From: Squalus acanthias
Taxonomy: Eukaryota
Assembly: GCA_030390025.1 (NCBI GenBank)
Contig: CM059432.1
Span: 49,416,001 to 49,480,000 of the forward strand
Reading direction: 5' to 3'
DNA: 64,000 bases
Shown here: positions 4,718-45,751 of the stretch, one piece after another
How positions within the stretch are numbered: position 1 is the stretch's first letter
How the letters are laid out: every line of letters begins with the position of its first letter
Notes under the pieces: generated by a model
The model's database searches: none
Told to the model about the DNA's origin: nothing
What the model saw: the letters and a program-made list of their open reading frames with translations, nothing else
Program-made: the position numbers and the translations under genes

Positions 4718-4810
4718 GGGGTACAGTAGCATAGTGGTTATGTCACTGAACTAGTAATCCAAAGGCCTGGGCTAATGATCCAGTAGATCCCAGTTCATAA
4801 TCCCACCATG
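4718..4810 (+). promoter_or_regulatory. tRNA-derived internal Pol III promoter (A box 4727-4737, degenerate B box about 4792-4803)
   Basis: tagcatagtgg fits TRGCNNARYGG; agttcataatcc is B-box-like, and copy 2 has the cleaner gagttcaaatcc on the minus strand near 28071-28082. Confidence 0.7.
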
Positions 4811-6760
4811 GCAGCTGGGTAAATTAATTAATTAAATAAATCTGGAATAAAAAGCTACCATCAGTAATAGTGACCATGAAACTACCTAATTGTAATAAAA
4901 ACCTATCTGGTTCACTAATGTCCTTTTAGGGAAGGAAAAGAAATCTGTTGTCCGTACCCGGTCTGGCCTATATGTGACTCCAGACACACAGCAATATGGT
5001 TGACACTTAACTGCCCTTTGAAGTGGCCTAGCAAGCCTCTGTATCTAAACCGTTATGAAAAATTATAACAAGAATAAAACCAGACCGACCGACCGATATC
5101 GACCTAGGCACCAGATTTGGCCATGAAAAGGCACGCCTAGCCCAGTCAACTCTGCAAAGTACGCCTCACTAACATCTGGGGACTTGCTCCAAAATTGAGA
5201 AAGCTGCGCCAAAAATGGGAGAGCTGTCCACAAATTAGTCAAGCAACAGCCTGACAGAGTCATACTCGCAGAATCATATCTTTTAGCCAACGTCCCAGAT
5301 TCCTGCATTAGCATCCCTGGGTCTCTCCTGCCGGGATACAACTGTGGCGGCACAGTGGTATACAGTCAGCAGGGAGTGGCCCTGGAAGTCCTCAACATTG
5401 ACTCCGGACCCCATGAAGTCTCATGGTATCAGGTCAAACATGGGCATGGAAACCTCCTGCTGATTACCACCTACCGCCCTCCCTCAGCTGATGAATCAGT
5501 ACTCCTCCATGTTGAACACCACTTGAAAGAAGCACGGAGGGTAGCAACGGCACAGAATGTACTTTGGGTGGGGGACATCAAAGTCCATCACCAAGAGTAG
5601 CTCGGTCGCACCACTACTGACCGAGCCATGAAGGACATAGCTGCCAGACTTGACCTGCAGCAGGTGGTGAGAGAACCAACACGAGGGAAAAACCTACTTG
5701 ACCTCGTCCTCACCAATCTACCTGTCGCAGATGCATCTGTCCATGACAGCATTGGTAGCAGTGACCACCGCACAGCCATTGTGGAGACGAAGTCCCGTCT
5801 TCACACTGAGGACACCCTCCATCGTGTTGTGTGGCACTACTGCCGTGCTAAATGGGATAGATTCAGAACAGATCTAGCAGCTCAAAACTGGGCATCCATG
5901 AGGCGTTGTGGGCCATCAGCAGCAGCAGAATTGTATTCCACCACAATCTGCAACCTCATGGCCCGGCATATCCCTCACTCTACCATTACCATCAAGCCAG
6001 GGGACCAACCCTGGTCAATAAGGAGTGTAGAAGAGCATGCAAGGAGCAGCACCAGGCGTACCTAAAAATGAGGTGCCAACCTGGGGAAGCTGCAACACAG
6101 GACTACATGCATGCAAAAAAGTGGAAGCAGCATGCTATAGACAGAGCTAAGTGATCCCACAATCAACGCATCAGATCAAAGCTCTGCAGTCCTGCCATTT
6201 CCAGTCGTGACTGGTGGTGGACCATTGAACAATAACGGGAGGAGGAGGCTCCATGAATATCCCCATCCTCAATGATGGTGGAGCACAGCACATTTGCAAC
6301 CATCTTCAGCCAGAAGTGCCGAATGGATGATCCATATCAGCCTCCTCCTGAGGTCCCCACCACCACAGAAGCCAGTTTTCAGCCAATCCGATTCACTCCA
6401 CGTGATATCAAGAAACGGCTGAGTGCACTGGATACAGCAAAGGCTGTGGGCCCCGACAACATCCCGGCTGTCGTGCTGAATACTTGTGCTCCAGAACTAG
6501 CTGCGCCTCTAGCCAAGCTGTTCCAGTACAGCTATAACACTGGCATCTATCCGACAATGTGAAAAACTGCCCAGGTATGTCCTGTCCACAAATAGCAGGA
6601 CAAATCCAATCCGGCCAATTACCGCCCCATCAGTCTACTCTCAATCATCAGCAAAGTGATGGAAGGTGTAGTCGACATTGCTAGCAAGTGGCACTTACTC
6701 ACCAATAACCTGCTCACTGATGCCCAATTTGGGTTCCGCCAAGACCACTCGGCTCCAGAC

Positions 6761-7772
6761 AGAGGGAAAGTAGAAAGTGAGGAGGACATAAAAAACCTAC
6801 AAGGGGATATAGACAAGCTGGGTGAGTGGGCAGAGATTTGGCAGATGCAATACAATATTGGAAAATGTGAGGTTATGCACTTTGGCAGGAAAAATCAGAG
6901 AGCAAGTTATTATCTTAATGGCGAGAAACTGGAAAGTACTGCAGTACAAAGGGATCTGGGGGTCCTAGTGCAAGAAAATCAGAAAGTTAGTATGCAGGTG
7001 CAGCAGGTGATCAAGAAGGCCAACGGAATGTTGGCTTTTATTGCTAGGGGGATAGATTATAAAAACAGGGAGGTATTGCTGCAGTTATATAAGGTATTGG
7101 TGAGACCGCATCTGGAATACTGCATACAGTTTTGGTGTCCATACTTAAGAAAAGACATACTTGCTCTCGAGGCAGTACAAAGAAGGTTCACTCGGTTAAT
7201 CCCTGGGATGAGGGGGTGGACATACGAGGAGAGGTTGAGTAGATTGGGACTCTACTCATTGGAGTTCAGAAGAATGAGAGGCGATCTTATTGAAACATAT
7301 AAGATTGTGAAGGGGCTTGATCGGGTGGATGCGGTAAGGATGTTCCCAAGGATGGGTGAAACTAGAACTAGGGGGCATAATCTTAGAATAAGGGGCTGCT
7401 CTTTCAAAACTGAGATGAGGAGAAACTTCTTCACTCAGAGGGTAGTAGGTCTGTGGAATTTGCTGCCCCAGGAAGCTGTGGAAGCTACATCATTAAATAA
7501 ATTTAAAACAGAAATAGACAGTTTCCTAGAAGTAAAGGGAATTAGGGGTTACGGGGAGCGGGCAGGAAATTGGACATGAGGCTGAGTTCGGATCGGTCGA
7601 GGCCCTGTGGGTGGCGTAGCGGGCCCAGGGGCTGAGTGGCCGGGTCCTGCTCCTACTTCTTGTGTTCTTTAGATTTGAGGTGAGGATCAGATCAGCCATG
7701 ATCTTATTGAATGGCGGAGCAGGCTCGAAGGGCCGATTGGCCTACTCCTGCTCCTATTTCTTATGTTCTTAT
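6761..7772 (+). mobile_element. Young 5'-truncated CR1 LINE nested in the tRNA-headed LINE
   Basis: Open RT C-terminal frame to 7579; near-identical to 47127-48137; ends in ttcttatgttcttat; the host sequence ggctccagac | tacagccttgg resumes on either side. Confidence 0.95.
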
Positions 7773-8977
7773 TACAGCCTTGGTCCAAACATGGACAAAA
7801 GAGCTGAATTCCAGAGGTGAAGTGAGAGTGACTGCCCTTGACATCAAGGCAGCATTTGACTGAGTGTCGAATCAAGGAGCCCTGGTAATACTGAAGTCAA
7901 TGGGAATCAGGGGGAAAACTCTCCACTGGCTGGAGTCATACCTAGCACAAAGGAAGATGGTTGTGATGGTTGGAAGTCAATCATCACAGCCCCAGGATAT
8001 CACTGCAGGAGTTCCTCAGGGCAGTGTCCTAGGCCCAACCATCTTCAGCTACTTCATCAATGACCTTCCCTCCATCATAAAGTCAGAAGTGGGGATGTTC
8101 GCTGATGATTGCACAGTGTTCAGCGCCATTCACAACTCCTCAGCTCATGAAGCAGTCCATGCCCGCTTGCAGCAAGACCTTGATGACATTCAGGCTTGGG
8201 CTGATAAGTGGCAGCTAACATTCACGCCACACAAGTGCCAGGCAATGACTATCTCCAAAAAGAGAGCTCCTTAACATTCAATGGTATTACCATTGCCGAA
8301 TCCCCCACCATCAACATCTTGGGGGCACCATTGACCAGAAACTTAACTGGACCAGCCACATAAATACTGTGGCAACAAGAGCAGGTCAGAGGCTGGGTAT
8401 TCTGCGGCAAGTGTCTCACCTCCTGACTCCCCAAATCCTTTCCACTATCTACAAGGCACAAGTCAGGAGTGTGATGGAATACTCTCCATCATTACAGCCC
8501 CAACATCATTCAAGAAGCTCGACACCATCCAAGACAAAGCAGTCCGCTTGATTAGCACCCCATCCACCACCTTAAACATTCACTCCCTCCACCACTGGCG
8601 TACCATGGCTGCCATGTGTACCATCTTCAAGATGCACTGCAGCAACTCGCCAAGGCTTCTTCGGCAGCACCTCCCAAACCCACGACCTCTACCAGCTAGA
8701 AGGACAAGGGCAGCAGGCACATGGAAACACCATCACCTCCAAGTTCCCCTCCAAGTCACACACCATCCTGACTTGGAAGTATGTCGCCGTTCCTTCATCG
8801 TCGCTGGGTCAAAACCCTGGAACTCCCTCCCTAACAGCACTGTGGGAGTACCTTCACCATACAGACTGCAGCAGTTCAAGAAGGCGGCTCACCACCACCT
8901 TCTCAAGGGCAACTAGGGATGGGCAATAAATGCTGGCTTTGCCAGCGACACCCGCATCCCATGAACAAATTTTAAAA

Positions 8978-11352
8978 AACAGTAAATGATCCATGGGAGT
9001 CCTTCAAAGAGGAGATAGTTCGGGTACAGAATAGACACATTCCAATGAGGGAAAAAAGGCCATCCAAAGCTAGAGCTCCCTGGATGACTAAAGAAAGATT
9101 AAAATGAAACAGAAAAAGGAGGCTTATGAGAAATGTCAGGTTCATAATACAGTAGAGAATCAAGCTGAATACAGAGAGAGTGCAGAGGAAAACTGAAAAA
9201 GGGAATAAGAGGGGGAAAGAGAATGTATTTGAAAAGATTAACAGGTAACATAGAAGGGAACACTGAAGTCTTTTCTAAACATAGAAAGAGTAAAAGGGTA
9301 GTCAAGGGAAGAGTGAAGCTGATTAGAGACCAAAAAGGAAATCTTATTGTGGAGGCCGAGGACATGGCTGAGGTACTAACTGAGTACTTTGCATCTGACA
9401 TCACTAAAAAAAGGATGCTGTCAATGTTACAGTAAAGGAGGAGGGGGTAGAGGAATTGGATAGGATAAAAATAAAGAGGTACTAAAACACCTGGCAGTGT
9501 AGAAAAGTCACCCGGCCCAGATGGGATGCATCTTCGGTTGCTGAGAAATGTATGGGTGGATAAAGCGGAGGCTCTGCCCACAAACTTTCAATCCTCCTTG
9601 GAAATGGGAGTGGTACAAGAGGACTGGAGGGTTGCAAGTGTTACACCCCTGTTCAAAAAAGGGGAGATAGATAAACCAGGTAACTACGAGCCAGTCAACC
9701 TAACATTGACGGTGGGGAAACTTCTCGAGACAATAATCTGAGACAAAATTAATTGTCACTTGGAAGAACATGGGTTAATAAATGACAGCCCGCACAGATT
9801 TGTTAAAAGCAAATCCTGTTTGACTAACTTGATTTAGGTTCTTCGATGAACGATCACATGGTTTTTGCGTGGAGTGGAGAGTATATATATTGTGATGCAT
9901 CACAATTGTGCGGGACAGGCTGGATGGACCAGAGGGTCTTTTCCGTTCAGTCATTGTTCGTACGTTTGTATGAAGGTTGATTTTGTGTATTTGGACTTTC
10001 AAAAGACACTTGATAAAGTGCCACATAATAGACTGGTTAGCAAAATTGAAGCCCACGGGATTAAAGGGGCAGTGGCGGCTGACAAGACAGAAAACAGAGA
10101 GTAGTAGTGAACGGTTGTTTTTCCAGACTGGAGGGAAGTATACAGTGTTGTTCCCCAGAGGTCGGTATTAGGACCACTGTTCTTTTTGATATGTATTAAT
10201 GGCCTGGACTTGGGTATGGGGGCATAATTTCAAAGTTTGTGGCTGACACAAAGCTTGGAAATGTAGTAAACAGCGGAGGAGGATAGTAACAGACTTCAGG
10301 AGGACATAGACAGACTGGTGAAATGGGAAGACACATGGCAAATGAAATTTAATGCAGAGAAGTATGAAGTGATGCATTTTGGAAGGAAAAATGAGAGGCA
10401 GTATAAACTAAATAATACAATTTAAAGGGGGTGCAGGAACAAGGAGACCTGGGGGTGTATGCACGCAAATCTTTGAAGGTGAAAGGACAAGTCGATAAGG
10501 CTGTTAATAAGGCCTACGGGATCCTTGGGCATATTAATAGAGGCATAGCATACAAAAGCAAGGAAATGATGGTAAATCTTTATAAATCACTGGTTACACC
10601 TCAGCTAGAGTAGTGTGTTCAATTCTGGGCACCACAATTTAGAAAGGGTGTCAAGGCCTTGGAGAGAGTACAGAAGAGATTTACTAGAATGGTACCAGAG
10701 ATGAGGGAACTTATTTATGTTGGGAGACTAGAAAAGCTGGGCTTGTTCTCCTTAAAGCAAAGGAGGTTAAGGGGAGATTTAATAGAGCCTTTCAAAATTA
10801 TGAGAAGTTTTGACAGCGTAGATAACAACAACAACTTGCATTAAAAAGCATCTTTAACGTAGTAAAATATCCCAATGCGCTTCACAGGAGCAAACAAAAT
10901 TGGACACCGAGCCACATAAGATGATATTAGGACAGATGATCAAAAGTTTGGTCAAAGAGGTAGGTTTTAAGGAGCGTTTTAAAGGATGAGAGAGAAGTAG
11001 AGAGGCTGAGTGGCTTAGGGGGTTAATTAGATAGGGAGAAACTGTTTCCACTAGCAGGAGGGTCAGTAACTGGAGGACACAGATTTAAGATAATTGGCAA
11101 AAAATCCAGCGAGGTGAAAGAAGGAGGAAATGTCTTACTCATTGTGTTATGATGTTCTGGAATGCATTGCCTGAAAGGGTGGCGGAAGCAGATTAGATAG
11201 TAACTTTCAAAAGGGAATTGGATATATGCTTGAAAAAGAAAAATTTGAAGGGCTATGGGGAAAGAGCAGGAGAGTGGTACTAATTGGTAGCTCTTTCAGA
11301 GAACACAGGCATCATGGGCCGAATGGCCTCCTTCTGTGCTGTATGATTCTAT
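8978..11352 (+). mobile_element. Degraded CR1 LINE (ORF2 RT region and 3' end) with nested inserts
   Basis: Fragments encode VTPLFKKG, VYLDFQK..DKVPH and LGLFSL; the 3' end is gtatgattctatg. Confidence 0.9.
10825..11027 (-). mobile_element. L2 LINE 3' terminal fragment inserted into a CR1
   Basis: Flanked by a tagata duplication (10819-10824 / 11028-11033); encodes an L2-like C-terminus (LKRSLKPTSL); ends in a (gtt)n tail; terminal sequence resembles the Deu-SINE tail. Confidence 0.7.
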
Positions 11353-18831: not shown

Positions 18832-20980
18832 CTTTGTTTTTTATTCATTCACGGGATGTGGGCATCGCTGGCAAGGCCAGCATTTATTGCCCATCCATAA
18901 TTGAGAAGGTGGTGGTGAGCCACCTTCTTGAACCGCGGTATTCCGTGTGGTGAAGGTACTCCCACAGTACTGTTAGAAACATAGAAAAATAGGAGCAGGG
19001 ATAGGCCATTTGGCCCTTCGAGCCTGCTCCGCCATTCAATATGATCATGGCTGATCCTCTATCTCAATACCATATTCCCGCTCTCTCCCCATACCCCTTG
19101 ATGCCTTTTGTGTCTAGAAATCTATCTATCACCTTCTTAAATATATTCAGTGACTTGGCCTCCACAGCCTTCTGTGGTAGAGAATTCCACAGGTTCACCA
19201 CCCTCTGAGTGAAGAAATTTCTCCTCATCTCAGTCCTAAATGTCCTACCCCGTATCCTGAGACTGTGACCCCTCGTTCTAGAGCCCCCAGCCAGGGGAAA
19301 CATCCTCCCTGCATCCAGTCTGTCTAGCCCTGTCAGAATTTTATACGTTTCAATGAGATCCCCTCTCATTCTTCTAAACTCTAGTGAATACAGGCCTAGT
19401 CGGCCCAATCTCTCCTCATAAGACAGTCCTGCCATCCCAGGAATCAGTCTGGTGAACCTTCGCTGCTCTCCCTCTATGGCAAGTATATCCTTTCTTAGGT
19501 AAGGAGACCAAAACTGCACACAGTACTCCAGGTGTGGTCTCACCAAGGCCCTGTACAACTGTAGTAAGACATCCTTGCTCCTGTACTCAAACCCTCTTGC
19601 AATGAAGGCCAACATACCATTTGCCTTCCTAACTGCATGCTGCACCTGCATGTTTGCTTTCAGTGACTGGTGTACAAGGACACCCAGGTCCCTTTGTACA
19701 TCAACATTTCCCAATCTATCACCATTTAAATACTCTACCTTTCTGTTTTTCCTACCAAAGTGGATAACTTCACATTTATCCACATTATACTGCATCTGCC
19801 ATGTATTTGCCCACTCACTCAACTTGTCTAAATCGCCTTGAAGCCGCTTTGCATCCTCCTCACAACTCACAATCCCACCTAGTTTTGTGTCGTCAGCAAA
19901 CTTGGAAATATTACATTTGGTTCCCTCATCCAAATCATTGATATACATTGTGAATAGCTGGGGCCCAAGCACTAATCCCTGCGGTACCCCACTAGTCACC
20001 GCCTACCACCCCGAAAAAGACCCATTTATTCCAACTCTGTTTCCTGTCTGTTAACCAATTTTCAATCCATGCCAGTATATTACCCCCAATCCCATGTGCT
20101 TTAATTTTGCACACTAACCTCTTATGTGGGACTTTATCAAAGGCCTTCTGAAAATCCAAATACACCACATCCACTGGTTCTCCCTTATCTATTCTACCAG
20201 TTACATCCTCAAAAAACTCCAGTCGGTTTGTCAAACACGATTTCCCTTTCATAAATCCATGCTGACTTTGTCTAATCCCGTTGATATTTTCTAAGTGTCC
20301 TGTTATCACATCCTTTATAATACTCTAGCATTTTCCCTACTACTGATGTTAGGCTAACCGGACTGTAGTTCCCAGTTTTCTCTCTCCCTCCTTTTTTAAA
20401 TAGTGGGGTTACATTTGCCACCCTCCAATCTGCAGGAACTGTTCCATAATCTATAGAATTTTGGAAGATGACAACCAATGCATCCACTATTTCCATGGCT
20501 ACCTCTTTTAGTACTCTGGAATGCAGATTATCAGGCCCTGGGGATTTATCAGCTTTCAGTCCCATTAATTTCTCCAGCACTATTTTATTACTGATACTAA
20601 TTTCCTTTAATTCCTCCTTCTCACTAGACCCTTGGTTCCCTAGCATTTCTGGGAAGTTATTTGTATCCTCTTCTGTGAAGACAGAACCAAAGTATTTGTT
20701 TAATTGCCCTGCCATTTTCTTGTTCCCCATTATAAATTCTCCCGTTTCTGACTGGAAGGGACCTACATTTGTCTTCACTAATCTTTTTCTTTTTACATAC
20801 TTATAGAAGCTTTTACAATCCGCTAGGTAGGGAATTCCAGGATTTTGACCCAGCGACGATGAAGGAACGGTAATATATTTCCAAGTCAGGATGGTGTGTG
20901 ACTTGAAGGGGAACATAAAGGTGCTGGTGTTCCCATGCCCCTGTTGCCCTTTTAGGTGGTAGAGGTCGTGAGTTTGGGGC
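18832..20980 (-). mobile_element. 3' fragment of the tRNA-headed LINE family (copy 3), split by a CR1
   Basis: 18832-18976 and 20821-20980 together match 24972-25280. Confidence 0.85.
18977..20820 (-). mobile_element. 5'-truncated CR1 LINE (ORF2 RT)
   Basis: ORFs 20272-20916, 19992-20309 and 19064-19999 carry SPGPD, YLDFQKAFDKVPH, GVPQG and KFADDTK; 3' tail ttctatgttt. Confidence 0.95.
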
Positions 20981-21189
20981 CTTCATATGCCGTCAGTAAA
21001 GATACCAAGTTTTCCACCTGCATAAATGTAGTCAATACAACTAAAATGTACGTTAGCAGCTTTATCTTTAGCTTCAAGCCTCAGTTGTTTCATACACATA
21101 TACTGCAGTGGTCTTTTTGATGTGACTGTTGATTTTCTGGTTCAATGGTGCAATTCAACTGAATGCAATGCCTAGATATGTAAAATTAG

Positions 21190-24971: not shown

Positions 24972-27900
24972 TTTTTTTATTTGTTTATGGGATGTGAGAA
25001 TCGCTGGCAAGGCCAGCATTTATTGCCCATTCCTAATTGCCCTTGAGAAGGTGGTGGTGAGCCGCCTTCTTGAACCGCTGCAGTCTGTGTGGTGAAGGTA
25101 CTCCCACAGTGCTGTTAGGTAGGGAGTTCCAGGATTTTGACCCAGCGACAGTGAAGGATCGGCAATATACTTCTAAGTCAGGATGATGTGTGACTTGGAG
25201 AGGAACTTGGATGTGGTGGTGTTTCCATGCGCCTGCTGCCCTTGTCCTTCTAGGTGGAAGAGGTTGAGGGTTTGGGAGGTGCTGCCGAAGAAGCCTTGGC
25301 GAGTTGCTGCAATGCATCTTGTAGAGGGTACACACTGCAGCCACAGTACACTGGTGGTGGAGGGAGTGAATGTTTAAAGAGATGGATGGGGTGCCAAACA
25401 AGCAGGCTGCTTTGTCCTGGATGGTGTCGAGCTTCTTGAGTGTTGTTGGAGCTGCACTCATCCAGGCAAGTGGAGAGTATTCCATCACACTCCTGACTTG
25501 TGCCTTGTAGATGGTGGAAAGGCTTTGGGGAGTCAGGAGGTGAGACACTCACCGCAGAATACCCAGCCTCTGACCTGCTCTTGTTGCCACAGTATTTATG
25601 TGGCTGGTCCAGTTAGGTTTCTGGTCAATGGTGACCCCCAGGATGTTGATGGTGGGGGATTCGGCGATGGTAATGCCGTTGACTGTCATGGGGCGGTGGT
25701 TAGACTCTCGCTTGTTGGAGATAGTCATTGCCTGGCACTTGTGTGGTGCGAATGTTACCTGCCACTTATTAGCCCAAGCCTGAATGTTGTCCAGGTCTCA
25801 TTGCATGCGGGCATGGACTGCTTCATTAGCTGAGGAGTTGTGAATGGCGCTAAGCACTGTGCAGTCATCAGCGAACATCCCCATTTCTGACCTTATGTTG
25901 GAGGGAAGGTCATTGATGAAGCAGCTGAAGATGGTTAGGCCTAGGACACTGCCCTGAGGAACTCCTGTAGCGATGTCCTGGGGCTGTGATGATTGACCTT
26001 CAACCACCACAACCATCTTCCTTTGTGCTAGGTATGACTCCAGCCAGTGGAGCGTTTTCCCCCCCCGATTCCCATTGACTTCAGTTTTACTAGGGCTCCT
26101 TGATGCCACACTCGGTCAAATGCTGCCTTGATGTCAAGGGCATTTACTCTCACCCCACCTCTGGAATTCAGCTCCTTTGTCCATGTTTAGACCAAGGCTA
26201 TAATGAGGTCGGGAGCCGAGTGGTCTTGGCGGAACCCAAACTGGGCATCAGTGAGCAGATTTTTGGTGAGTAATTGCCGCTTGATAGCACTGTTGATGAC
26301 ACCTGTCCATCACTTTGCTGATGATTGAGAGTAGACTGATGGGGCTGTAATTGGCCGGGTTGGATTTGTCATGCTTTTTGTGGACAGCACATACCCGGGC
26401 AGTTTTCCACATTGTCGGATAGATGCCAGTGTTGTAGCTGTACTGGAACAGCTTGGATAGAGGCGCGGCTAGTTCTGGAGCACAAGTCTTCAGCACGATA
26501 GCCGGAATGTTGTCGGGACCCACAGCCTTTGCTGTATCCAGGGCGCTCAGTTATTTCTTGATATCACGTGGAGTGAATCGAATTGGCTGAAGACTGGCTT
26601 CTGTGATGGTGGGGACCTCAGGAGTAGGCCGATATGGATCATCCACTCGGTACTTCTGGCTGAAGATGGTTGCAAACGCTTCAGCCTTGTCTTTTGCACT
26701 CATGTGCTGGGCTCCACCATCATTAAGGATGGGGATATTCATGGAGCCTCCTCCTCCCATTAGTTGTTTAATGGTCCACCACCATTCACGACTGGATGTG
26801 GCAGGACTGCAGAGCTTTGATCTGATCCGTTGATTGTCGGATCGTTTAGCCCTGTCTATAGCATGCTGCTTCTGCTTTTTAGCTTGCATGTAGTCCTGTG
26901 TTGCAGCTTCTCCAGGTTGGCACCTCATTTTTAGGTATGCCTGGTGCTGCTCCTGGCATGCTCTTCTGCACTCCTTATTGAACCAGGGTTGGTCCCTTGG
27001 CTTGGTGGTAATGGTAGAGTGAGGGATATGCCGGGCCATGAGGTTACAGATTGTGGTGGAATACAATTCTGCTGTTGTTGATGGCCCACAGCGTCTCATG
27101 GATGTCCAGTTTTGAGCTGCCAGATCTGTTCTGAATCTATCCCATTTAGCACGGTGGTAGTGCCACATACACGATGGAGGGTGTTCAGTGTGAAGATGGG
27201 ATTTCGTCTCCACAATGACTGTGCGGTGGTCACTGCTACCAATACTGTCATGGATAGATGCATCTGCGACAGGTAGATTGGTGAGGACGAGGTCAAGTAG
27301 GTTTTTCCCTCGTGTTGGTTCTCTCACCACCTGCCGCAGGCCCAGACTGGCAGTTATGTCTTTCAGGACTCGGCCAGTAGTGGTGCTACCGAGCCACTCT
27401 TGGTGATGGACATCACCCAACGTACATTCTGTGCCCTTGCTACTCTCAGTGTTTCCAAGTGGTGTTCAACATGGAGAAGTACTGATTCATCAGCTGAGGG
27501 AGGTAATCAGCAGGAGGTTTCCTTGGCCATACTTGACCTGAAACCATGAGACTTCATGGGGTCCGGAGTCAATGTTGAGGACTCCCAGGGCCACTCCTTC
27601 CCGACTGTATACCACTGTGCCACTGATTTACGGTGACTGAATAAGTGAACAATGGTGATGGAGGAGTTTGGGACATTGGCTGAAAGGTATGATTCTGTGA
27701 GTATGACTATGTCAAGCTTGACTAGTCTGTGGGACAGCTCTCCCAATTTTGGCACAAGATGTTGGTAAGGAGGACTTTGCAGGATTGGCTGGGCTGGGTG
27801 TGCCGTTGCCGAGGTCAATGGGGGCAGTCGATGGAGGTCCGTCCGGTTTCATTTTATTATGTTTCGTAGTGGTTAGTTACAACTGAGTGGCTTGTTAGAC

Positions 27901-28152
27901 CATTTCAGAGGGCAGTTACATATAGGCCAGACCAGGTAAGGACTGCAGATTTCCTTCCCTAAGGGCATTAGTGAACAAGATAGGTTTTTACAACATGATT
28001 ACCATTACTGATACCAGCTTTTTATTTAATATTAATTAATTAATATTTAAATTCCCCAGCTGCCGTGGTGGGATTTGAACTCACGTCTGTGGATCATTAG
28101 TCCAGGCCTCTGGATTACTAGCCCAGTGACAGTACCACTACGTTACCGTTCC
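24972..28152 (-). mobile_element. Single-ORF APE-RT LINE with a tRNA-like 5' head, copy 2 (near full length, decayed)
   Basis: ORF fragments 27507-27818, 26551-27420, 26248-26523, 25798-26109 and 25033-25548 carry APE and RT motifs; the head at 27850-28152 is homologous to 4718-5100; A-rich 3' tail. Confidence 0.92.
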
Positions 28153-36305: not shown

Positions 36306-39300
36306 GAAACATAGAAGATAGGAGCAGGAGTAGGCCATTCGGCCCCTCGAGCCTGAGCCGCCATTTAATGAGATCATGGCTGATCATCCAAATTCAGTAC
36401 CCTGTCCCTGCTTTCTCCCCATATCCCTTGATCCCTTTAGCCTTAAGAAATATATCTAACTCCTTCTTGAATATATTTAATGAATTGGCCTCTACTGCCT
36501 TCTGTGGTAGAGAATTCCACAGGTTCACCACTCTCTGGGTGAAGAAATTCCTCCTCATCTCAGTCCTAAATGGCTTACCCCTTATCCTTAGATTGTGACC
36601 CCTGGTTCTGGACTCCCCCGCCATCGGGAACATCTTTCCTGCATCTAGTCTGTCTAGTCCTGTTAGAATTTTATACGTTTCAATGAGATCCCCTCTCATT
36701 CTTCTAAACTCTAGCGAATATAAGCCTAATCGACCCAATCTCTCCTCATACGTCATTCCTGCCATCCCAGGTATCAGTCTGGTGAATCTTCACTGCACTC
36801 CCTCCATGGCAAGAACATCCTTCCTCAGATAAGGCGACCAAAACTGCACACAATACTCAAGGTGTGGTCTCACCAAGGCCTGGTACAACTGCAGCAAGAC
36901 ATCCTTGCTCCTGTACTCGAATCCGCTCGCTATGAAGGCCAACATACCATTTGCCTTCTTAACCACATGCTGAACCTGCATCCTTACCTTCAGCGACTGG
37001 TGCACAAGGACACTCAGGTCTCGTTGCACTTCCCCTTTTCCCAATCTATTGCCGTTCAGATATTAATCTGTCTTCCTGTTTTTGCCACCGAAGTGGATAA
37101 CCTCGCATTTATCCACATTATACTGCATTTGCCATGCATCTGCCCAATCACCCAACCTGTCCAAATCATACTGGAGTTTCTCTGCATCCTCCTCACAGCA
37201 CACACACCCACCCAGCTTTGTGTTGTCTGCAAACTTGGAGATATTACATCTAGTTCCCTCATCTAGATCATTTATATATATTGTGAATAGCTGGGGTCCT
37301 AGCACCGATCCCTGCGGTATCCCACTAGTCACTGCCTGCCACTCAGAAAAAGACCCGTTTATTCCAACTCTTTGCTTCCTGTCTGCCAACCAGTTCTCTA
37401 TCCAAGACAGTACCTTACCCCCAATCCCGTGTGCTTTAACTTTGCATGCTAATCTCTTATGCGGGACCTTATCGAAAGCCTTCTGAAAGTCCAAATACAC
37501 CACATCCACTGGTTCTCCCTTCTCTATTCTACCAGTTACATCCTCAAAAAATTCCAGTAGATTAGTCAAGCATGATTTACCTTTTGTAAATCCATGTTGA
37601 CTTTGTCCGATCCTGTCACTGTTTTCCAAGTGCTCTGCTATTACATCTTTTATAATGGACTCTAGCATTTTCCCCACTACCAATGTCAGGCTTACCGGTC
37701 TATAATTCCCCGTTTTCTCTCGACCACCTTTTTAAATAGTGGGGTTACATTAGCTATCCTCCAATCCATGGGAATTGTTCCAGAGTCTATAGAATTTTGG
37801 AAGATGACCAGCAATGCATCTACTATTTCTAGGGCCACTTCCTTAAGTACCCTAGGATGTAGATTATCAGGCCCTGGGGATTTATCGACCTTCAATCCCG
37901 TCAATTTCCCTAACACCATTTCCCTACAAATACTGATTTCATTCAGTTTCTCCCTCTCATTAGACCCTATGTTCCCCGACATCTCTGGGAGGTTATTTGT
38001 GTCCTCCTTTGTGAAGACAGAACCAAAGTATGTATTTAATTGGTCTGCCATTTCTTTGTTCCCCATTATAAATTCCCCTGATTCTGACTGCAAGGGACCT
38101 ACGCTTGACTTCACCAATCTTTTTCACTTCACATATCTATAGAAGCTTTTACAGTCAGTTTTTATGTTCCCTGCAAGCTTACTCTCATAATCTATTTTCC
38201 CCCTCTTAATTAATCCCTTTGTCCTCCTTTGCTGAATCCTAAACTGCTCCCAATCCTCAGGTTTGCTGCTTTTTCTGGCCAAATTATATGTCCTCTCCTT
38301 AGATCTTATGCTATCCCTAATTTCCCTTGTTAGCCACGGTTGAGTCACCTTTTTTGTTTTATTTTTATGCCAAACAGGGATGAACAAATTCTGTAGTTCA
38401 TCCATGCGATCTTTAAATGTTTGCCATTGTCTATCCACCGTCAACCCTTTAAGCAACGTTCCCCAATCCATCCTAACCAACTCGTGCCTCATACCATCGT
38501 AGTTTCCTTTATTTAAATTCAGGACCCTAGTCTCTGAGTCAACTACTTCACTCTCCATTTTAATGAAAAATTCTATCATATTATGATCGCTCCTCCCCAA
38601 GGGGCCTCGCACAACAAGATTGCTAATTAATCCTTTCTCATTGCATAATACCCAGTCTAAGATGGCCTGATCTCTAGTTGGTTCCTCAACATATTGGTTC
38701 AGGAAACCATCCCGTATGCACTCTAGGAATTCCTCCTCCACAGTATTGTTACTAATTTGGTTAGCCCAATCTACATGTAGATTAAAGTCACCCATGATAA
38801 CTGCAGTGCCCTTATTGCACGCATCTCTAATTTCCCGTTTAATGCCATCCCCAACCTCAGCATTACTGTTTGGGGGTCTGTATAGAACTCCCACTAACGT
38901 TTTCTGCCCCTTGGTATTTCTCAGCTCTACCCATACAGATTCCACATCATCAGAGCGAATATCCTTCCTTACAATTGTGTTAATCTCCTCTTTAACCAGC
39001 AATGCTATCCCACCTCCTTTTCCTTTTTTCCTGTCCTTCCTGAATATTGAATACCCCTGGATGTTGAATTCCCAGTCTTGGTCACTCTGGAGCCATGTCT
39101 CCGTAATCCCAATTATATCATATCCGTTTACATCTATTTGCACAGCTAATTCATCCACCTTATTACGAATGCTCCTCGCATTAAGACACAAAGTCTTCAG
39201 GCTTGATTTTTTAACACTCTTAGTCCTTTTAGAATTATTATTTACTGTGGCCCTGTTTGATTTACCCCCTTGATTTCTCTGCTTTCCACTTTTGCTTTTC

Positions 39301-39755
39301 TCCTTCCTGTCTTTTGTTTCTATCCTTGTTGCCCTTTCCTCTGTCTCCCTGCACAGGTTCCCAACCCCCTGCCATTTTAGTTTAACCCCTCCCCAACAGC
39401 ACTAGCAAACACTCCCCCTAGGACATCGGTTCCGGTCACGCCCAGGTGCAAACCGTCCAGTTTGTACTGGTCCCACCTCCCCCAGAACCGGTTCCAATGT
39501 CCCAGGAATTTGAATCCCTCCCCCTTGCACCATTCCTCTAGCCACGTATTCATCTGAAATATACTTCTATTTCTACTCTGACAAGCACATGGCACTGGTA
39601 GCAATCCTGAGATTACTACCTTTGAGGTCCTATTTTTTAATTTACCTCCTAACTCTCTATATTCAGCTTTTAGGACCTCATCCCGTTTTTTACCTATATC
39701 TTTGGTACCTATATGCACCACGACAACTGGCTGTTCACCCTCCCCCTCCAGAATG
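36306..39755 (-). mobile_element. CR1 LINE truncated within the ORF1 esterase; ORF2 APE-RT with few disruptions
   Basis: ORFs 39377-39721 (esterase HIGT.D...DGLHL), 38124-39191 (APE: LNARSI, ITETWL, YRPP, GDFN, SDH) and 37692-38117, 37063-37683, 36790-37044, 36394-36765 (RT). Confidence 0.96.
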
Positions 39756-39926
39756 GGAGCAGTTGCAAGTGGCAGAACTTTTGTTCCAAAGGTCTTTCAG
39801 CACTTTTAGCAGGCCTACAGAAGTCAGAGGTGCTGCAGCTTCTACCTCTCAACTGTGGGACCTTCTTGGAAGACCCTCTCCCAGCTTGGACTGAGCGCTT
39901 CCCCAACAGAGGCATCTGCCAGCAGC

Positions 39927-41139
39927 ATGGGAGCCATTTATTTCCTTTCTTCATGGACCTCAGATTCGGATGAGGAGCAGCCACGGCAGCAGCAGAACCA
40001 GGCAGCTCAGCAGCAACAGCAGCTGGAGCCCCAACCTGCTGCTCACCCACCTGATGCTTCACAGGGCAGAAGGCGCCAGCACATCGAGACACCTCACCGC
40101 AGGAGATACCCCCAACACAGGGTTTACAGACAGAGGATAACCTACCTCAACATGTGTGAGCAGCAGTGCCAAAGGAGGCTGAGACTTTCGCGAGAGGTTG
40201 TCGGAGACATCTGCGCACTGCTGCACCAACACCTGGAGCCCAGAGGAGCGGGTGGACACCCCTTACCAGTGGCTGTCAAAGTCACCACCGCACTCAACTT
40301 TTTTGCCTCAGGCTCCTTCCAGGGATCATCAGCAGACATCAGCGGCATCTCACAGTCGGCCGCCCACAGTTGCATCATGCAGGTTACCAATGCCCTTTTC
40401 GCAAAGGCCCACAATTACATCAAGCAAGTGTAACTGCACGTTCAGTTGGCTTTGCCAATATGGCAGGCTTGCCAATGGTGCAGGGCGTCATAGACTGCAC
40501 ACATGTGGCCCTTAGGGCACATCATTACAACCCAGCTATCTTTGTCAACCGCAAAGGCTTCCACTCTCTCAAAGTACAGCTGGTGTGTAACCACAAGAAG
40601 GGGATTTTGCATGTTTGCGCCAAGTTCTGTGGTAGTTGCTATGACTCGTTCATCCTGTGGAACTCTAGTGTTCCTCCGCTCTTCAATCTGCCAAACCAAC
40701 TTAACAGATGGCTCCTTGGTGACAAGGGCTACCCCCTTGAAGAAGTGGCTAATGATGCCGATCAGGAGGCCAGCTAACGAGGCTGAAGAGCGCTACACGC
40801 CAGCCACATTTCGACCAGGTCCATCATCGACAAACCATTGGCTTGTTGAAGATGCAATTCCGATGCCTTGACAGATCAGGTGAACCCCTGCAGTATTCAG
40901 CAGCCAGGGTCTCCAGAATGGTTGTGGTCTGCTGTGCGCTGCACAACATGGCACAGCGTCGTGGCTTGCAACTTCCTGATGAGCAAGTAGCTCAGTTCAT
41001 AGCCTCCTCAGAAGAGGATGAGGATGAGGAGCAGGAGGAGGACCGAGCACCGGCCTATCGGCCAGCAGCAGTGGCAGCACGCGAGCACATGGCTGCCCGT
41101 GATGGAAGGCATGCACTTATCCTGGCCAGATTTGCATAG
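39927..41139 (+). pseudogene. Harbinger (HARBI1-like) DDE transposase, frameshifted
   Basis: MGAIYF...RLRLSR...[10 protein letters not shown]...[41 protein letters not shown] and CCALHN. Confidence 0.94.
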
Positions 41140-42299: not shown

Positions 42300-43250
42300 A
42301 GTGGAGTGAGAGGACAGAAGAGAGCATTAGTGGGAGATCAGCCTTAGGAGTTCAGCTCTGAGGTACAGTTGGACAGGAGGTTTTTCCTCTATAATTAGTA
42401 CTTGTGTAAAGTGAGTAAGGTGATTCTTGAGAGATTTTTTTTGGTGGTAGTGAGAGCTCAGGTGGACACTATCTACATTTTTAAGTTAAACATGACGGGA
42501 TGATAGTGCAAGGAACCCCTGTGATGAGTGTGCAGTGCGATATGGATCGTGTATCCAGGGGCAGCACATTTGCACCAATGTTGAAAAATTGAGTCTCTGG
42601 GGCAGACCAGCAATTGGCCATACTTCAGAGCATCAGAGGGGATGAGAAATTTCTGGATCATATTCTCCAGATGTGTTCACCCAAGGGGCAGTACTGGGCA
42701 ATTCAGGACACAGAGATAATGTAGAAAAACAAGAGTGGGTGACCATCTGCAGGGATGGCAAAGAGAGGCAGTGCTCACAGGTGCAGGGAATCCGAGTTAC
42801 AAGAGCTGGCCAATAGATGTTGGAGGAGGATTTGGAACAATTGATAGAGATAATTATGGAAAAGGAATTGGTTCTGAAATTTTTAAAAAAACTTTAAGAT
42901 GATTTCACCAGGTCCAGATGGCATGCACTCCAGGCTGTTTTGATAGTGAATAAGGAAAATCTCCTCTGGTTAGGCAGTCAGTGACAAGGAGACATCAATT
43001 TAAAATTGTCGCTAAGATAAGAAAGGTTCGTAGGAATTTTGTTACACAGGTTGTTGGGAGCATGGAATGCTTTACCACAGGGAAAGGTTGATGCAGGAAC
43101 CATTGCTTCTTTTAAGGGAAACCTGGATAAATATTTGAAGCAGAGAAAAATACAGGGCTATGGGGAGAGCGCAGTGGGGTTAACTGTGGATTGCTCTAGT
43201 ATAAAGCCGGCACAGTAGGCCGAATAGTCTCCTTTTGTGCTATGGTTCTA
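42300..43250 (+). mobile_element. Old, heavily internally deleted CR1 (5'UTR, ORF1 N-terminus, short ORF2 piece, 3' tail)
   Basis: Decayed Cys-pair/W ORF1-like segment at about 42495-42810; an SPGPD-like tcaccaggtccagatggc at 42905; 3' tail homologous to 49550-49860. Confidence 0.55.
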
Positions 43251-43325
43251 CTCAACAACATCTGCCTTAGTGTTGTCAAATAGGAATGTAGATGGAGGAG
43301 TGAATGAAATTAAGCTTCTAAGGAT

Positions 43326-43696
43326 GAGCGGCGGCGGACCTGCGGGGAACCAGGCGGCGGCGGCGAGGTTTAAGAGGCGGCAGAGACCAGGTAGGCCTCA
43401 GAGCGGCGGCGGACCTGCGGGGAACCAGGCGGCGGCGGCGAGGTTTAAGAGGCGGCAGAGACCAGGTAGGCCTCAGAGCGGCGGCGGACCTGCGGGGAAC
43501 CAGGCGGCGGCGGCGAGGTTTAAGAGGTGGCAGAGACCAGGTAGGCCTCAGAGCGGCGGCGGACCTGCGGGGAACCAGGCGGCGGCGGCGAGGTTTAAGA
43601 GGCGGCAGAGACCAGGTAGGCCTCAGAGCGGCGGCGGACCTGCGGGGAACCAGGCGGCGGCGGCGAGGTTTAAGAGGCGGCAGAGACCAGGTAGGC
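43326..43696 (+). repeat. 75-bp GC-rich tandem repeat (about 5 copies) forming the CR1 5' end
   Basis: Units start at 43326, 43401, 43476, 43551 and 43626; only one substitution was seen among them. Confidence 0.97.
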
Positions 43697-43952
43697 GTAC
43701 CAATTTCCGAGCTCGGAGGGAGAGAAGTAAAAAGTAATCGAAGTGTGACGTCACCAGAAAGCAGGTAAGTGATTGGTTGGTGAGTATTTCTCTCTTTTTA
43801 AACTTAAACTCTGTGGTTTATAGTTTCTAAGCTCTCTGTGGTGTAGCGGGGACTGTTGGTAAACCAGGGCCCTTAAGTATATAATTTAACTGTAGTGCAA
43901 TTGGTGGGATTGATTTGTTTTAATTTAATTTGAATTAATTAAAGGGTAAGTC

Positions 43953-44902
43953 ATGGCAGGAGAGCTCGGCCCCGTGGTATGTTCCTCCTGTGCTATGTGG
44001 GAAATCAGGGACCCTTCCGGTGTCCTTGACAACCATGTGTGCGGGAAGTGTATCCAGCTACAGCTACTGGCAGACCGCATTACAGCGCTGGAGCTGCGAT
44101 TGGATGCGTATTGGAGCATTCGCGATGCTGAGAACCTCGTGAATAGCACGTTTAGCGAGTTGGTCACACCGCAGGCAAAGGGTGTACAGGCAGTTAGTAA
44201 ATGGGTGACCACCAGGCAGAGTAAGAGGTGCAGGCAAGTAGTGCAGGGGTCCCCTGTGGACATCCCCCTCTCAAACAGATATGCCACTTTGAATACTGTT
44301 GTGGGGGATGACTTATCAGGGGAAGGCAGGAGCAGCCAACTTCCTGGCACCATGGGTGGCTCTGCTGCACAGGCCGGGAGGAAAAAGAGTGGAAGAGCTA
44401 TAGTGATAGGGGACTCAATTGTAAGGGGAATAGATAGGCGTTTCTGCGGCCGCAACCGAGACTCCAGGATGGTGTGTTGCCTCCCTGGTGCAAGGGTCAA
44501 GGACGTCTCGGAGCGGCTACAGAACATTTTGGAGGGGGAGGGCGAACAGCCAGCTGTCGTGGTGCACATAGGCACCAACGATATAGGTAAAAAAGGGGAT
44601 GAGGTCCTAAAAGCAGAATATAGGGAGTTAGGAGGTAAATTAAAAATAGGACCTCAAAGGTAGTAATCTCAGGATTGCTACCAGTGCCACGTGCTAGTCA
44701 GAGTAGAAATAGGAGGATATTTCAAATGAATACGTGACTAGAGGAATGGTGCAAGGGGGAGGGATTCAAATTCCTGGGACATTGGAACCGGTTCTGGGGG
44801 AGGTGGGACCAGTACACACCGGACGGTCTGCACCTGGGCAGGGCCGGGACCGCTGTCCTAGGGGGAGTGTTTGCTAGTGCTGTTGGGGAGGGTTTAAACT
44901 GA
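43953..44902 (+). pseudogene. CR1 ORF1 (Cys-rich zinc finger, leucine zipper, SGNH esterase)
   Basis: CSSC..W...CGKC, a heptad leucine segment, GDSIVR, PGARV, HIGTND and DGLHL; frameshift near 44650 and an internal stop near 44735. Confidence 0.92.
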
Positions 44903-45616: not shown

Positions 45617-45751
45617 CGATAGCAAAATACTGCGGATGCTGGAAATCTGAAATAACAACAGAAAACGCTGGAAAAACTCAGCAGGCCAGGCAGCATCCGT
45701 GGAGAGAGAAAGAGAGTTAACGTTTCAGGTCGATGACCTTTCATCAGAACC
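45617..45751 (-). mobile_element. 135-bp Penelope-type pLTR insertion with a 14-bp TSD
   Basis: TSD attaattaataatg at 45603-45616 and 45752-45765; near-identical to 61622-61752. Confidence 0.9.
45715..45751 (-). ncRNA. Minimal type I hammerhead ribozyme
   Basis: The minus strand reads GGUU CUGAUGA A AGGUC AUC GACCU GAAA CG UU AACU: intact core, 5-bp stem II, palindromic ACGU stem III, stem I GGUU/AACU. Confidence 0.8.

What the first reader, a model, noticed from the sequence alone, without database searches (positions are those of the whole stretch)
24972..28152. Sense strand of the tRNA-headed LINE lacks TTTT: candidate Pol III-transcribed protein-coding retrotransposon
Seen, by manual scan: across ~3.2 kb of copy 2 there is no AAAA on the + strand, so no TTTT on the sense strand, while the opposite run is common. 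Copy 1 has three internal TTTT runs (about 4924, 5281 and 6376), each at a site where copy 2 lacks it, consistent with post-insertion mutation. The neighbouring CR1 sense strand has many TTTT runs. Established: four or more Ts terminate vertebrate Pol III. Inference: selection removed terminators so that Pol III could read from the tRNA head through the whole APE-RT ORF, which would imply unusual cap-independent translation. This is the best candidate here for an undescribed system.
Basis: partly seen in the sequence, partly recalled or inferred. Interest (0 to 1): 0.88.

Follow-up and report, generated by a model that had tools for sequence, protein, structure and literature searches.

The report
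LINE retrotransposon with tRNA-type promoter head
A 3.2 kb protein-coding jumping gene in this fish-like vertebrate genome always starts with a tRNA-derived piece of the kind that recruits RNA polymerase III, and its coding strand specifically avoids runs of T, which fits but does not prove that polymerase III copies the whole element.

Summary
In detail: the + strand of 24972-28152 has no AAAA, so the sense strand has no TTTT. Copy 1's three internal TTTT sites are real and private.

The tRNA-headed LINE is a real multi-copy unit. Of 39 head-anchored genomic loci, 38 run on into the APE-RT body and 18 are full length. Of 19 loci anchored on the 3' end, 17 are 5'-truncated with no head upstream.

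TTTT absence alone is weak evidence. Dinucleotide and synonymous-codon shuffles expect only about 1.8-2 runs, giving P(0) of about 0.11-0.15.

T-run avoidance as a whole is stronger. Sites shared by at least half of 20 copies number 7 for T>=3, against 44 for A, 51 for C and 36 for G. The longest open frame has 4 T>=3 runs against 10.7 expected (p<=0.001), while A, C and G runs match expectation. Three headless LINE ORFs with the same T content carry 4-9 TTTT. Two decayed CR1 copies also show a milder deficit.

There is no RNA evidence. I put Pol III read-through at about 0.45 and interest at 0.68.

The parts
24972..28152 (-). Copy 2 of the tRNA-headed LINE, full length but decayed. The ORF is broken into pieces of at most 304 aa.
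28058..28152 (-). tRNA-derived head. The anticodon arm is at 28110-28126, followed by a tandem duplicate of that arm at 28087-28105. The acceptor stem is not preserved.
   Evidence: ARAGORN calls tRNA-Thr(AGT) or tRNA-Ile(AAT) at the head in 3 of 29 related loci and 0 in the window. Rfam tRNA scores 25.8-27.6 bits in 3 of 10 loci, below the gathering score of 29.
28135..28145 (-). A-box-like motif. It reads TAACGTAGTGG here and TAGCGTAGTGG or TAGCATAGTGG in most copies.
   Evidence: The box consensus is recalled, not from a call.
28071..28082 (-). B-box-like motif, GAGTTCAAATCC.
   Evidence: The box consensus is recalled, not from a call.
27853..28057 (-). 5' UTR body. It opens with an AT-rich spacer holding AATAAA and ATTAAA hexamers. 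Copy 2 lacks about 50 nt that most other copies have.
27712..27852 (-). ATG-led short ORF (46 codons here, 49 in most copies). It overlaps the main ORF in another frame.
25033..27823 (-). Main APE-RT reading frame, broken in this copy. Exo_endo_phos_2 lies at about 27217-27411 and RVT_1 at about 25627-26055. There is no in-frame ATG upstream of the endonuclease.
24972..25032 (-). 3' UTR and tail of 61 nt. AATAAA is at 25019-25024. The terminus is CCCATAAAC(A/G)AAT(T)n(A)m, with n=1 here.
4720..6760 (+). Copy 1, 5' part: head, 5' UTR, APE and the start of RT. The A-box-like motif is at 4727-4737.
7768..8980 (+). Copy 1, 3' part: rest of RT and the tail, with a terminal TTTT at 8970.

Best explanation
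This is a now-decayed family of compact, single-ORF APE-RT LINEs of about 3.2-3.3 kb. The first about 95 nt are a SINE-type, tRNA-derived head with A and B boxes.

Shown: the head, a 5' UTR of about 200-280 nt, the ORF and a 61-nt tail were retrotransposed together as one RNA that began at the first base of the head.

Inferred: that RNA was made by RNA polymerase III from the internal A/B-box promoter. It read through the whole coding region because the sense strand is purged of T runs. It ended in a T run at the very 3' end of the element or in the flank. The same 5' and 3' ends also occur joined directly in short, SINE-like derivatives.

How the uncapped RNA would be translated is not known. 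It might be translated directly, or the protein might come in trans from occasional Pol II read-through copies.
For: (1) One unit.
- Of 39 loci found with the head alone, 38 run on into the ORF, and 18 align end to end with copy 2. All 7 first loci did the same.
- Flanks differ between copies, and 5' ends coincide to the base.
- 18 of 20 copies have a G just before my start, so the unit probably begins one G earlier.

(2) It behaves as a LINE.
- Of 19 loci anchored on the 3' end, 17 are 5'-truncated at scattered points, 1 is full length and 1 is a head-bearing deletion form.
- Pfam finds Exo_endo_phos_2 and RVT_1.

(3) Promoter.
- The A-box-like and B-box-like motifs are kept in nearly all of 41 aligned heads.

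(4) T runs in the shared state.
- Sites shared by at least 10 of 20 full-length copies: T>=4 0, T>=3 7 and T>=2 80. The matching figures are 15/44/166 for A, 11/51/196 for C and 9/36/151 for G.
- The 11 T4 sites seen are in 1-4 copies each. The two internal shared ones arose by different or parallel changes in non-sister copies.

(5) Beyond codon usage.
- In the longest open frame fetched (815 aa), T>=3 runs number 4 against 10.7 under synonymous shuffles (p<=0.001).
- Four-T-in-five motifs number 1 against 7.2 (p=0.007).
- A, C and G runs of 3 or more match expectation: 27 vs 31.2, 31 vs 32.1 and 26 vs 27.4.
- All 19 copies have fewer TTT than their synonymous shuffles; summed, 106 vs 213.5.

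(6) Headless comparators with the same T content (.207-.210).
- They carry 9, 6 and 4 T4 runs.
- Their T>=3 runs exceed expectation, and rho(TT) is 1.07-1.12 against 0.57-0.73 in the family.

(7) The 3' terminus.
- It is AAT(T)n(A)m with n from 0 to 8 and n>=4 in 10 of 49 tails.
- n differs between close relatives in the tree.
- The abstract of PMC5725217 reports that Pol III stops at heterogeneous places within a T stretch, leaving U tails of 1-6.
- The abstract of PMC3141230 reports degenerate T>=5 elements acting as partial terminators. This would make even T3 and interrupted tracts costly over 3 kb.

(8) Poly(A) hexamers.
- Three poly(A)-signal hexamers sit about 113-132 nt from the 5' end in 17-18 of 20 copies. 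That is a liability for a Pol II mRNA but not for Pol III.
Against: - TTTT absence alone is not significant. Dinucleotide shuffles expect 1.3-2.3 runs with P(0) of 0.08-0.25 per copy. Synonymous shuffles expect about 1-2.6.
- Beyond dinucleotide content, the T>=3 deficit is modest: about 9 vs 12.6 per copy, with per-copy p of 0.01-0.45.
- The copies share ancestry, so they amount to about one observation.
- Two of three headless CR1 copies also lie below their synonymous-shuffle expectation. T4 is 4 vs 8.8 (p=.015) and 1 vs 5.0 (p=.013); TTT is 32 vs 45 and 19 vs 28.5. Some T-run paucity is therefore not unique to the headed family.
- The clean comparators come from only two or three families, all GC-rich.
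- No headless relative of this same LINE lineage could be examined. The best matches in this genome to the nearest outside protein are this family itself.
- No RNA run on record holds the element, and the runs laid are contigs of unknown kind.
- All sampled copies have broken ORFs, so activity cannot be observed today.
- I know of no natural Pol III transcript of 3 kb that serves as an mRNA (my recall).
- The main ORF has no ATG upstream of the endonuclease.
Confidence: 0.45

Rival explanations
1. The composite is transcribed by Pol II, either from an internal promoter in the head or 5' UTR that happens to start at the head's first base, or from host read-through. The tRNA head is then a captured passenger that drives only the short SINE-like derivatives. 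The T-run paucity would reflect this LINE lineage's own composition and codon-context bias, or selection on the mRNA such as avoidance of U-rich destabilising or cleavage elements.
For: - TTTT absence is within chance under composition-matched nulls.
- TT is already under-represented (rho 0.57-0.73), and this accounts for most of the T3 and T4 deficit.
- Two decayed CR1 copies show milder deficits without any head.
- An AATAAA sits 41 nt upstream of the terminal A run, conserved in 16 of 20 copies.
- All known LINE promoters are Pol II (PMC5786205, passage read).
Against: - It needs a Pol II start at exactly the same base at which A/B boxes would place Pol III.
- Avoidance is T-specific; A, C and G runs are as expected.
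- Avoidance grows with run length relative to synonymous shuffles. Runs of exactly 2 are 59 vs 57.4, of 3 are 4 vs 9.0, and of 4 or more are 0 vs 1.8.
- Intact headless ORFs with the same T content show the opposite trend.
- Three poly(A) hexamers lie near the 5' end.
Confidence: 0.38
2. The tRNA-like head is an RNA-processing signal. The element is co-transcribed inside longer host transcripts, and RNase P cuts at the head's 5' end to define the element's 5' terminus. This would be analogous to the ribozymes at the 5' ends of some LINEs.
For: The unit begins at or one base before tRNA position +1 in 18-20 of 20 copies. Self-processing 5' ends are known for R2-type LINEs; this comes from a reference-list entry seen in PMC5786205 and my recall.
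Against: - The acceptor stem is not complementary, and the head fails ARAGORN in 26 of 29 loci and the Rfam gathering score in all.
- Cutting at the 3' side of the tRNA-like fold would sever the head from the body.
- T-run avoidance is not predicted by this model.
Confidence: 0.05
3. The arrangement arises because a site-specific LINE inserts again and again into one position of a tRNA-derived SINE, so head and LINE are neighbours and not one unit.
For: Short head-plus-tail forms exist.
Against: - Of 17 5'-truncated copies, 16 have no head or 5' UTR match in the 0.5-3 kb of upstream DNA fetched. One (L056) has only a weak 72% head-like match about 600 nt upstream.
- No SINE remainder follows the LINE's 3' end, and the 3' flanks are unrelated.
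- The head-to-body junction is identical in 38 of 39 head-anchored loci.
Confidence: 0.02

Closest known systems
tRNA-derived SINEs (SINE2) with LINE-derived tails, including bipartite SINEs that carry both 5' and 3' LINE parts (Kojima 2018, PMC5786205, passages read)
   Same: A tRNA-derived head with A/B boxes sits at the exact 5' end. The tail is identical to a LINE tail. There are no internal TTTT. Short forms joining the 5' UTR to the tail occur in this family: L046 and one locus, and joints in four runs.
   Different: Here the head sits on the autonomous-type, 3.2 kb protein-coding element itself. In the described cases the LINE partner lacks the head and is taken to be Pol II-transcribed.
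RTE-1_DAn and relatives: LINEs noted to contain a tRNA-like sequence (one sentence in PMC5786205)
   Same: A LINE consensus that contains a tRNA-like stretch.
   Different: The paper mentions it only as a source of spurious hits. It gives no position, promoter role or T-run analysis in the passage I read. It is an insect RTE, and relatedness to this family was not tested.
T+ SINEs of mammals (B2, Dip, Ves, Can, Ere): AATAAA, a Pol III terminator and an A tail at the 3' end, with polyadenylated Pol III transcripts (PMC8466645, abstract)
   Same: The 3' end combines AATAAA, a T run of variable length and an A run. T>=4 occurs in 10 of 49 tails.
   Different: The AATAAA lies 41 nt upstream of the terminal A run, not next to the T run. 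Most tails (25 of 49) have a single T. The partner LINE is not L1. Polyadenylation was not tested.
Pol II-driven LINEs with internal 5' UTR promoters (L1, jockey, I factor; recalled)
   Same: Transcription starts at the element's first base, so the promoter is carried along. Copies show 5' truncation and there is an APE-RT ORF.
   Different: The promoter-like motifs here are of Pol III type 2. The sense strand avoids T runs.
SacSINE1/DeuSINE family of sharks with L2-type tails (PMC5499810, passages read)
   Same: A cartilaginous-fish SINE with a tRNA-like head and a tail shared with an L2 LINE. The short forms seen here may belong to it.
   Different: Identity was not tested, since no SINE library is on hand. 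That paper describes no LINE carrying the head.

Membership tests
Non-LTR retrotransposon (LINE), APE-type | ORF with an apurinic-type endonuclease and a reverse transcriptase | tested here: met
   Pfam Exo_endo_phos_2 (E 3.6e-5, below the curated cut-off) and RVT_1 (E 4.9e-10, above the cut-off) on copy 2 pieces. RVT_1 scores 141 bits in L020. Relatives carry RVT_1, Exo_endo_phos_2 and Exo_endo_phos.
Non-LTR retrotransposon (LINE), APE-type | Copies share the 3' end and are mostly 5'-truncated at scattered points | tested here: met
   17 of 19 loci anchored on the 3' end are truncated at positions from 530 to 2726. Contig depth falls from 3' to 5' in four runs.
Non-LTR retrotransposon (LINE), APE-type | Target-site duplications | tested here: inconclusive
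   By eye, a few copies show imperfect repeats of 7-13 nt (L031, L041, L043) and most show none.
LINE clade (L2, CR1 or RTE) | Phylogenetic placement of the RT among reference clades | not testable with these tools
   No reference LINE set is on hand. The nearest outside proteins are 33% identical and unnamed. The atlas gives only a generic RT family. The compact single ORF, short upstream ORF and 61-nt 3' UTR resemble RTE or L2, but that comparison is recalled.
Pol III type 2 (tRNA/SINE-like) transcription unit | A box and B box at tRNA-like spacing near the 5' end | tested here: met
   The A-box-like motif is at positions 8-18 and the B-box-like motif at 71-82, in nearly all of 41 heads. The spacing is enlarged by a duplicated anticodon arm. 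The consensus motifs are recalled.
Pol III type 2 (tRNA/SINE-like) transcription unit | No T>=4 between the start and the intended 3' end | tested here: met
   0 T4 sites are shared by at least 10 of 20 copies. Copy 2 has none. This is necessary but not distinctive, since P(0) is about 0.11-0.15 under the nulls.
Pol III type 2 (tRNA/SINE-like) transcription unit | T-run terminator at the 3' end | tested here: inconclusive
   A terminal T run of at least 4 occurs in 10 of 49 tails. 25 of 49 have T1, and these would need a terminator in the flank.
Pol III type 2 (tRNA/SINE-like) transcription unit | Pol III/TFIIIC occupancy, and 5'-triphosphate, alpha-amanitin-resistant RNA | not testable with these tools
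   No RNA holder is on record. The runs laid are contigs of unknown kind.
SINE2 | Short (under about 700 bp) and non-coding | tested here: not met
   The unit is 3.2-3.3 kb with an APE-RT frame. Only rare derivatives are short (L046; one locus).
tRNA gene | Cloverleaf that passes tRNA detectors | tested here: not met
   ARAGORN finds 0 in the window and 3 of 29 loci. Rfam scores are below the gathering score. The head is tRNA-derived, not a tRNA gene.

The most novel reading that the evidence does not exclude
This would be an autonomous-type LINE lineage that swapped the usual Pol II promoter for a SINE-style Pol III promoter. Its whole 3.2 kb sense strand would have evolved to be free of Pol III stop signals, so that one uncapped Pol III transcript serves as the retrotransposition template and possibly as the messenger. 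It would be the first protein-coding mobile element propagated by Pol III.
Probability: 0.4. Interest if true: 0.9.

Novelty: new variant of a known kind. Interest (0 to 1): 0.68.

Why it matters
LINEs are taken to be Pol II genes and SINEs to be their Pol III parasites. A LINE that carries the SINE-type promoter on its own 5' end blurs that division.

If Pol III does read through it, three questions follow:
- How long can a natural Pol III transcript be?
- Can such an RNA be translated, or is its protein supplied in trans?
- Did SINE/LINE pairs with shared 5' and 3' ends arise by deletion from such elements, instead of by adding a head to a LINE fragment?

Even if Pol II transcribes it, the T-specific run avoidance and the captured head remain unexplained and are concrete features to test.

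Tried and rejected
- RNA evidence. The look-up of sequencing runs listed no RNA holder on record. The four runs laid are Logan contigs of guessed kind, so they show neither strand, start nor expression. I used them only for the short joined forms and the depth profile.
- SINE-targeting insertion. Rejected, see the rivals.
- A recurrent short SINE with the junction seen in L046. The 40 best genomic matches to L046 cover only its head part. One locus has head and tail 75 nt apart. No abundant family with that exact junction was seen among the scored matches.
- Headless relatives of the same lineage. Searching the genome with the nearest outside protein returned only this family, at 33-35% identity.
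- Clade naming. Pfam, the homologue search and the protein atlas gave only generic RT and endonuclease labels.
- Rfam over the window at gathering threshold. No match.
- L069, L073 and L072 as extra comparators. L069 and L073 proved to be family copies followed by CR1-like sequence, and L072 belongs to the same family as L067. None was counted as an independent comparator.
- A fuzzy-regex scan for tails timed out. It was replaced by a BLAST-anchored scan.
- Literature. Seven full-text searches found no paper describing a LINE transcribed by Pol III or a tRNA-headed autonomous LINE, apart from the one-line mention of RTE-1_DAn. Repbase and Dfam could not be consulted, so the family may already be catalogued there.
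Full report
THE OBSERVATION

On the + strand of window 24972-28152 there is no AAAA, so the sense (-) strand of this element has no TTTT. TTTT on the + strand is found at 26 overlapping positions. The sense strand has 16 A4+, 10 C4+, 5 G4+ and 0 T4+ runs at a T content of 0.209.

A second copy lies at 4720-6760 plus 7768-8980 (sense +). It is 82-89% identical to copy 2 by BLAST and is split by a foreign insertion of about 1 kb. It has TTTT at 4924, 5281 and 6376 as reported. It also has TTTT at 8970 (the 3' terminal T run) and at two places inside the insertion. The three CR1-like LINE copies in the window carry 13, 4 and 4 T4+ runs on their sense strands.

THE COMPOSITE IS ONE UNIT

The window belongs to a 3.7 Gb assembly. 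A search with the 323-nt head and 5' UTR alone gave 5992 first-look candidates, of which 40 were scored. I fetched the 39 places other than the window itself.
- 38 of the 39 continue from the head into the ORF.
- 18 align with copy 2 from position 1-3 to position 3124-3181 in one piece.
- 20 carry internal deletions, insertions or run out of the fetched stretch.
- One (L046) is head 1-235 joined to tail 2980-3181.

The 5' ends coincide to the base, while the flanks are unrelated. In 18 of 20 copies the base before my start is G, so the unit probably starts one G earlier.

A sample of 19 loci anchored on the 3' end shows the usual LINE pattern. Seventeen are 5'-truncated at positions scattered from 530 to 2726, one is full length, and one is a head-bearing deletion form. 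Sixteen of the truncated copies have no head upstream. One (L056) has only a weak 72% head-like match about 600 nt away.

This rejects the idea that the LINE merely lands again and again inside a SINE. Twenty full-length copies are on average 92.9% identical pairwise in a MAFFT alignment and form a star-like tree. All sampled copies have broken frames. The longest open stretch is 575 aa among the first 19 and 815 aa in L071. The 44 best protein matches all have stops, except the partial L071.

ANATOMY

The head:
- Positions 1-95 are tRNA-derived.
- An A-box-like TAGCGTAGTGG lies at 8-18.
- The anticodon arm is followed by a tandem duplicate of itself; L036 has three copies.
- A B-box-like GAGTTCAAATCC lies at 71-82.
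- There is no complementary acceptor stem.
- ARAGORN calls tRNA-Thr(AGT) or tRNA-Ile(AAT) at the head in 3 of 29 loci and nothing in the window.
- Rfam's tRNA model scores 25.8-27.6 bits in 3 of 10 loci, under the gathering score of 29.
- The box consensus sequences are from my memory.

The 5' UTR and reading frames:
- An AT-rich spacer with AATAAA and ATTAAA hexamers follows the head; it is conserved in 17-18 of 20 copies. A 5' UTR body comes next.
- An ATG opens a 49-codon frame that overlaps the main frame.
- The main frame has no ATG upstream of the endonuclease.
- The main frame has Exo_endo_phos_2 and RVT_1 and ends 61 nt before the 3' end.

The 3' terminus reads CCCATAAAC(G/A)AAT(T)n(A)m. 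Among 49 tails, n is 0 in 5, 1 in 25, 2 in 5, 3 in 4, 4 in 5, 5 in 4 and 8 in 1. T plus A together stay near 10 (a few rows are mis-parsed by my simple rule). n differs between close neighbours in the tree.

Relatives: the nearest outside proteins are 33% identical, about 1020-1036 aa, and sit on contigs of about 3.36-3.39 kb. The clade could not be named.

IS THE LACK OF TTTT MORE THAN CHANCE?

For TTTT alone, hardly.
- The iid expectation is 4.8 runs.
- Dinucleotide-preserving shuffles expect 1.9, with P(0)=0.14-0.15 for copy 2.
- Synonymous-codon shuffles of its in-frame pieces expect 2.0, with P(0)=0.11.
- The 19 copies carry 0 (8 copies), 1 (10) or 2 (1) T4 runs.
- In the 20-copy alignment no T4 site is shared by half the copies, against 15 for A, 11 for C and 9 for G. 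All 11 T4 sites are in 1-4 copies.
- The two shared internal ones arose by different or parallel changes in non-sister copies.
- The ancestral state therefore had none, but with about 2 expected this is weak.

The broader pattern is stronger.
- Sites shared by at least 10 of 20 copies: T>=3 7 and T>=2 80. The matching figures are 44 and 166 for A, 51 and 196 for C, and 36 and 151 for G.
- In the 815-aa frame of L071, T>=3 runs are 4 against 10.7 under synonymous shuffles (p<=0.001).
- In the same frame, four-T-in-five motifs are 1 against 7.2 (p=0.007) and T4 is 0 against 1.8 (p=0.13).
- By run length, runs of exactly 2 are as expected (59 vs 57.4), runs of 3 are 4 vs 9.0, and runs of 4 or more are 0 vs 1.8.
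- A, C and G runs of 3 or more match expectation, so the avoidance is T-specific.
- In the shorter L023 frame the same trend is not significant (3 vs 5.9, p=0.07).
- Across the 19 copies TTT is below its synonymous expectation in every one; summed, 106 vs 213.5. The copies are kin, however, and count as roughly one observation.
- Against dinucleotide shuffles of the whole element, the T>=3 deficit is modest: about 9 vs 12.6, with per-copy p of 0.01-0.45. Much of the effect is thus already present as TT under-representation (rho 0.57-0.73).

COMPARATORS

Three open LINE ORFs from this genome have the same T content (0.207-0.210). L067 and L068 belong to one family and L070 to another.
- They carry 9, 6 and 4 T4 runs.
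- Their T>=3 runs are above their synonymous expectation.
- Their rho(TT) is 1.07-1.12.

Low T content alone therefore does not explain the pattern.

Against my reading, two of the three decayed CR1 copies in the window fall below their synonymous expectation. T4 is 4 vs 8.8 and 1 vs 5.0; TTT is 32 vs 45 and 19 vs 28.5. The third does not.

HOW IT MOST LIKELY WORKS

Shown: the unit was copied through an RNA that began at the head's first base and ran to the tail.

Inferred: the A/B boxes recruit TFIIIC and Pol III, which starts at that base as in SINEs. The body is passable because it lacks T runs.

Two abstracts make the details plausible. Degenerate T>=5 elements act as partial terminators in human cells (PMC3141230), so over 3 kb even T3 and interrupted tracts would be costly. 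This fits avoidance that grows with run length. Pol III stops at heterogeneous positions in a T stretch and leaves U tails of 1-6 (PMC5725217). This fits the variable terminal T run, and the arrangement resembles T+ SINEs (PMC8466645, abstract). I regard the tail reading as suggestive only.

The main rival is Pol II transcription, with the head as a captured passenger and the T-run paucity as lineage composition or mRNA-level selection. An RNase P-type processing role for the head is unlikely, given the missing acceptor stem.

No RNA evidence could be obtained. The laid contigs do show two things. Joints link about 25035-25085 to about 27854-27901 in all four runs, which are short head-plus-tail forms. 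Depth also rises again over the head.

KNOWN OR NEW

Seven full-text searches found no description of a Pol III-transcribed LINE or of an autonomous LINE with a tRNA head. [quoted passage not shown] That paper also states that LINEs and bipartite LINE derivatives are taken to be Pol II-transcribed. Repbase and Dfam were not available, so the family itself may be catalogued.

I class it as a new variant of a known kind. I give the Pol III reading a probability of about 0.45, and interest 0.68.

Noticed in passing
window 24972-24991; tails of L010-L066: The element's 3' terminus has a T run of variable length (0-8, at least 4 in 10 of 49 tails) directly before the terminal A run. T plus A length stays near 10, and the T length differs between closely related copies.
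   Followed up: partly
window 27712-27852 (-); alignment: The only ATG near the 5' end opens a 46-49-codon frame that overlaps the APE-RT frame. The APE-RT frame itself has no ATG before the endonuclease. This is reminiscent of RTE-type short upstream ORFs (recalled).
   Followed up: partly
window 6761-7767: A foreign insertion of about 1 kb splits copy 1. It carries its own TTTT at 7036 and 7130. Its identity was not examined.
   Followed up: no
window 28087-28126 (-); L036:151-300: The head contains a tandem duplicate of the anticodon arm. One copy (L036) has three.
   Followed up: partly
L069 and L073: Two family copies break off at sense positions 2555 and 2588. Each is followed, in the same orientation, by a 5'-truncated CR1-like sequence with a different CR1 breakpoint. 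Open frames of 971 and 805 aa run across the joins. I picked these loci for their long frames, so the in-frame joins are partly a selection effect. The nearness of the two break points is unexplained.
   Followed up: partly
L028:3451-3554: A near-perfect hairpin of about 100 nt built from tRNA-like T-arm sequence matches Rfam mir-607 at 51.8 bits, under the gathering score of 94. It is probably an inverted pair of SINE heads and not a microRNA.
   Followed up: no
window 43950-48600 (+), 36397-40146 (-), 19067-20982 (-): Three CR1-like LINE copies. The first has a zinc-knuckle ORF1 and long APE and RT frames. They were used here as comparators.
   Followed up: partly
window 43228-43797: Both strands show long open frames made of a repeated Arg/Gly-rich unit just upstream of the CR1-like copy. 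It looks like a tandem repeat.
   Followed up: no
L038 and L039 (same contig, about 640 kb apart): Two copies with the same extent (4-2576) and nearly the same identity to copy 2. This is probably a segmental duplication and not two insertions.
   Followed up: no
Runs labelled as several different coded organisms hold 15-60% of copy 2's 31-mers. The family, or near-identical sequence, is therefore present beyond one sample. The kinds of the runs are not on record.
   Followed up: no
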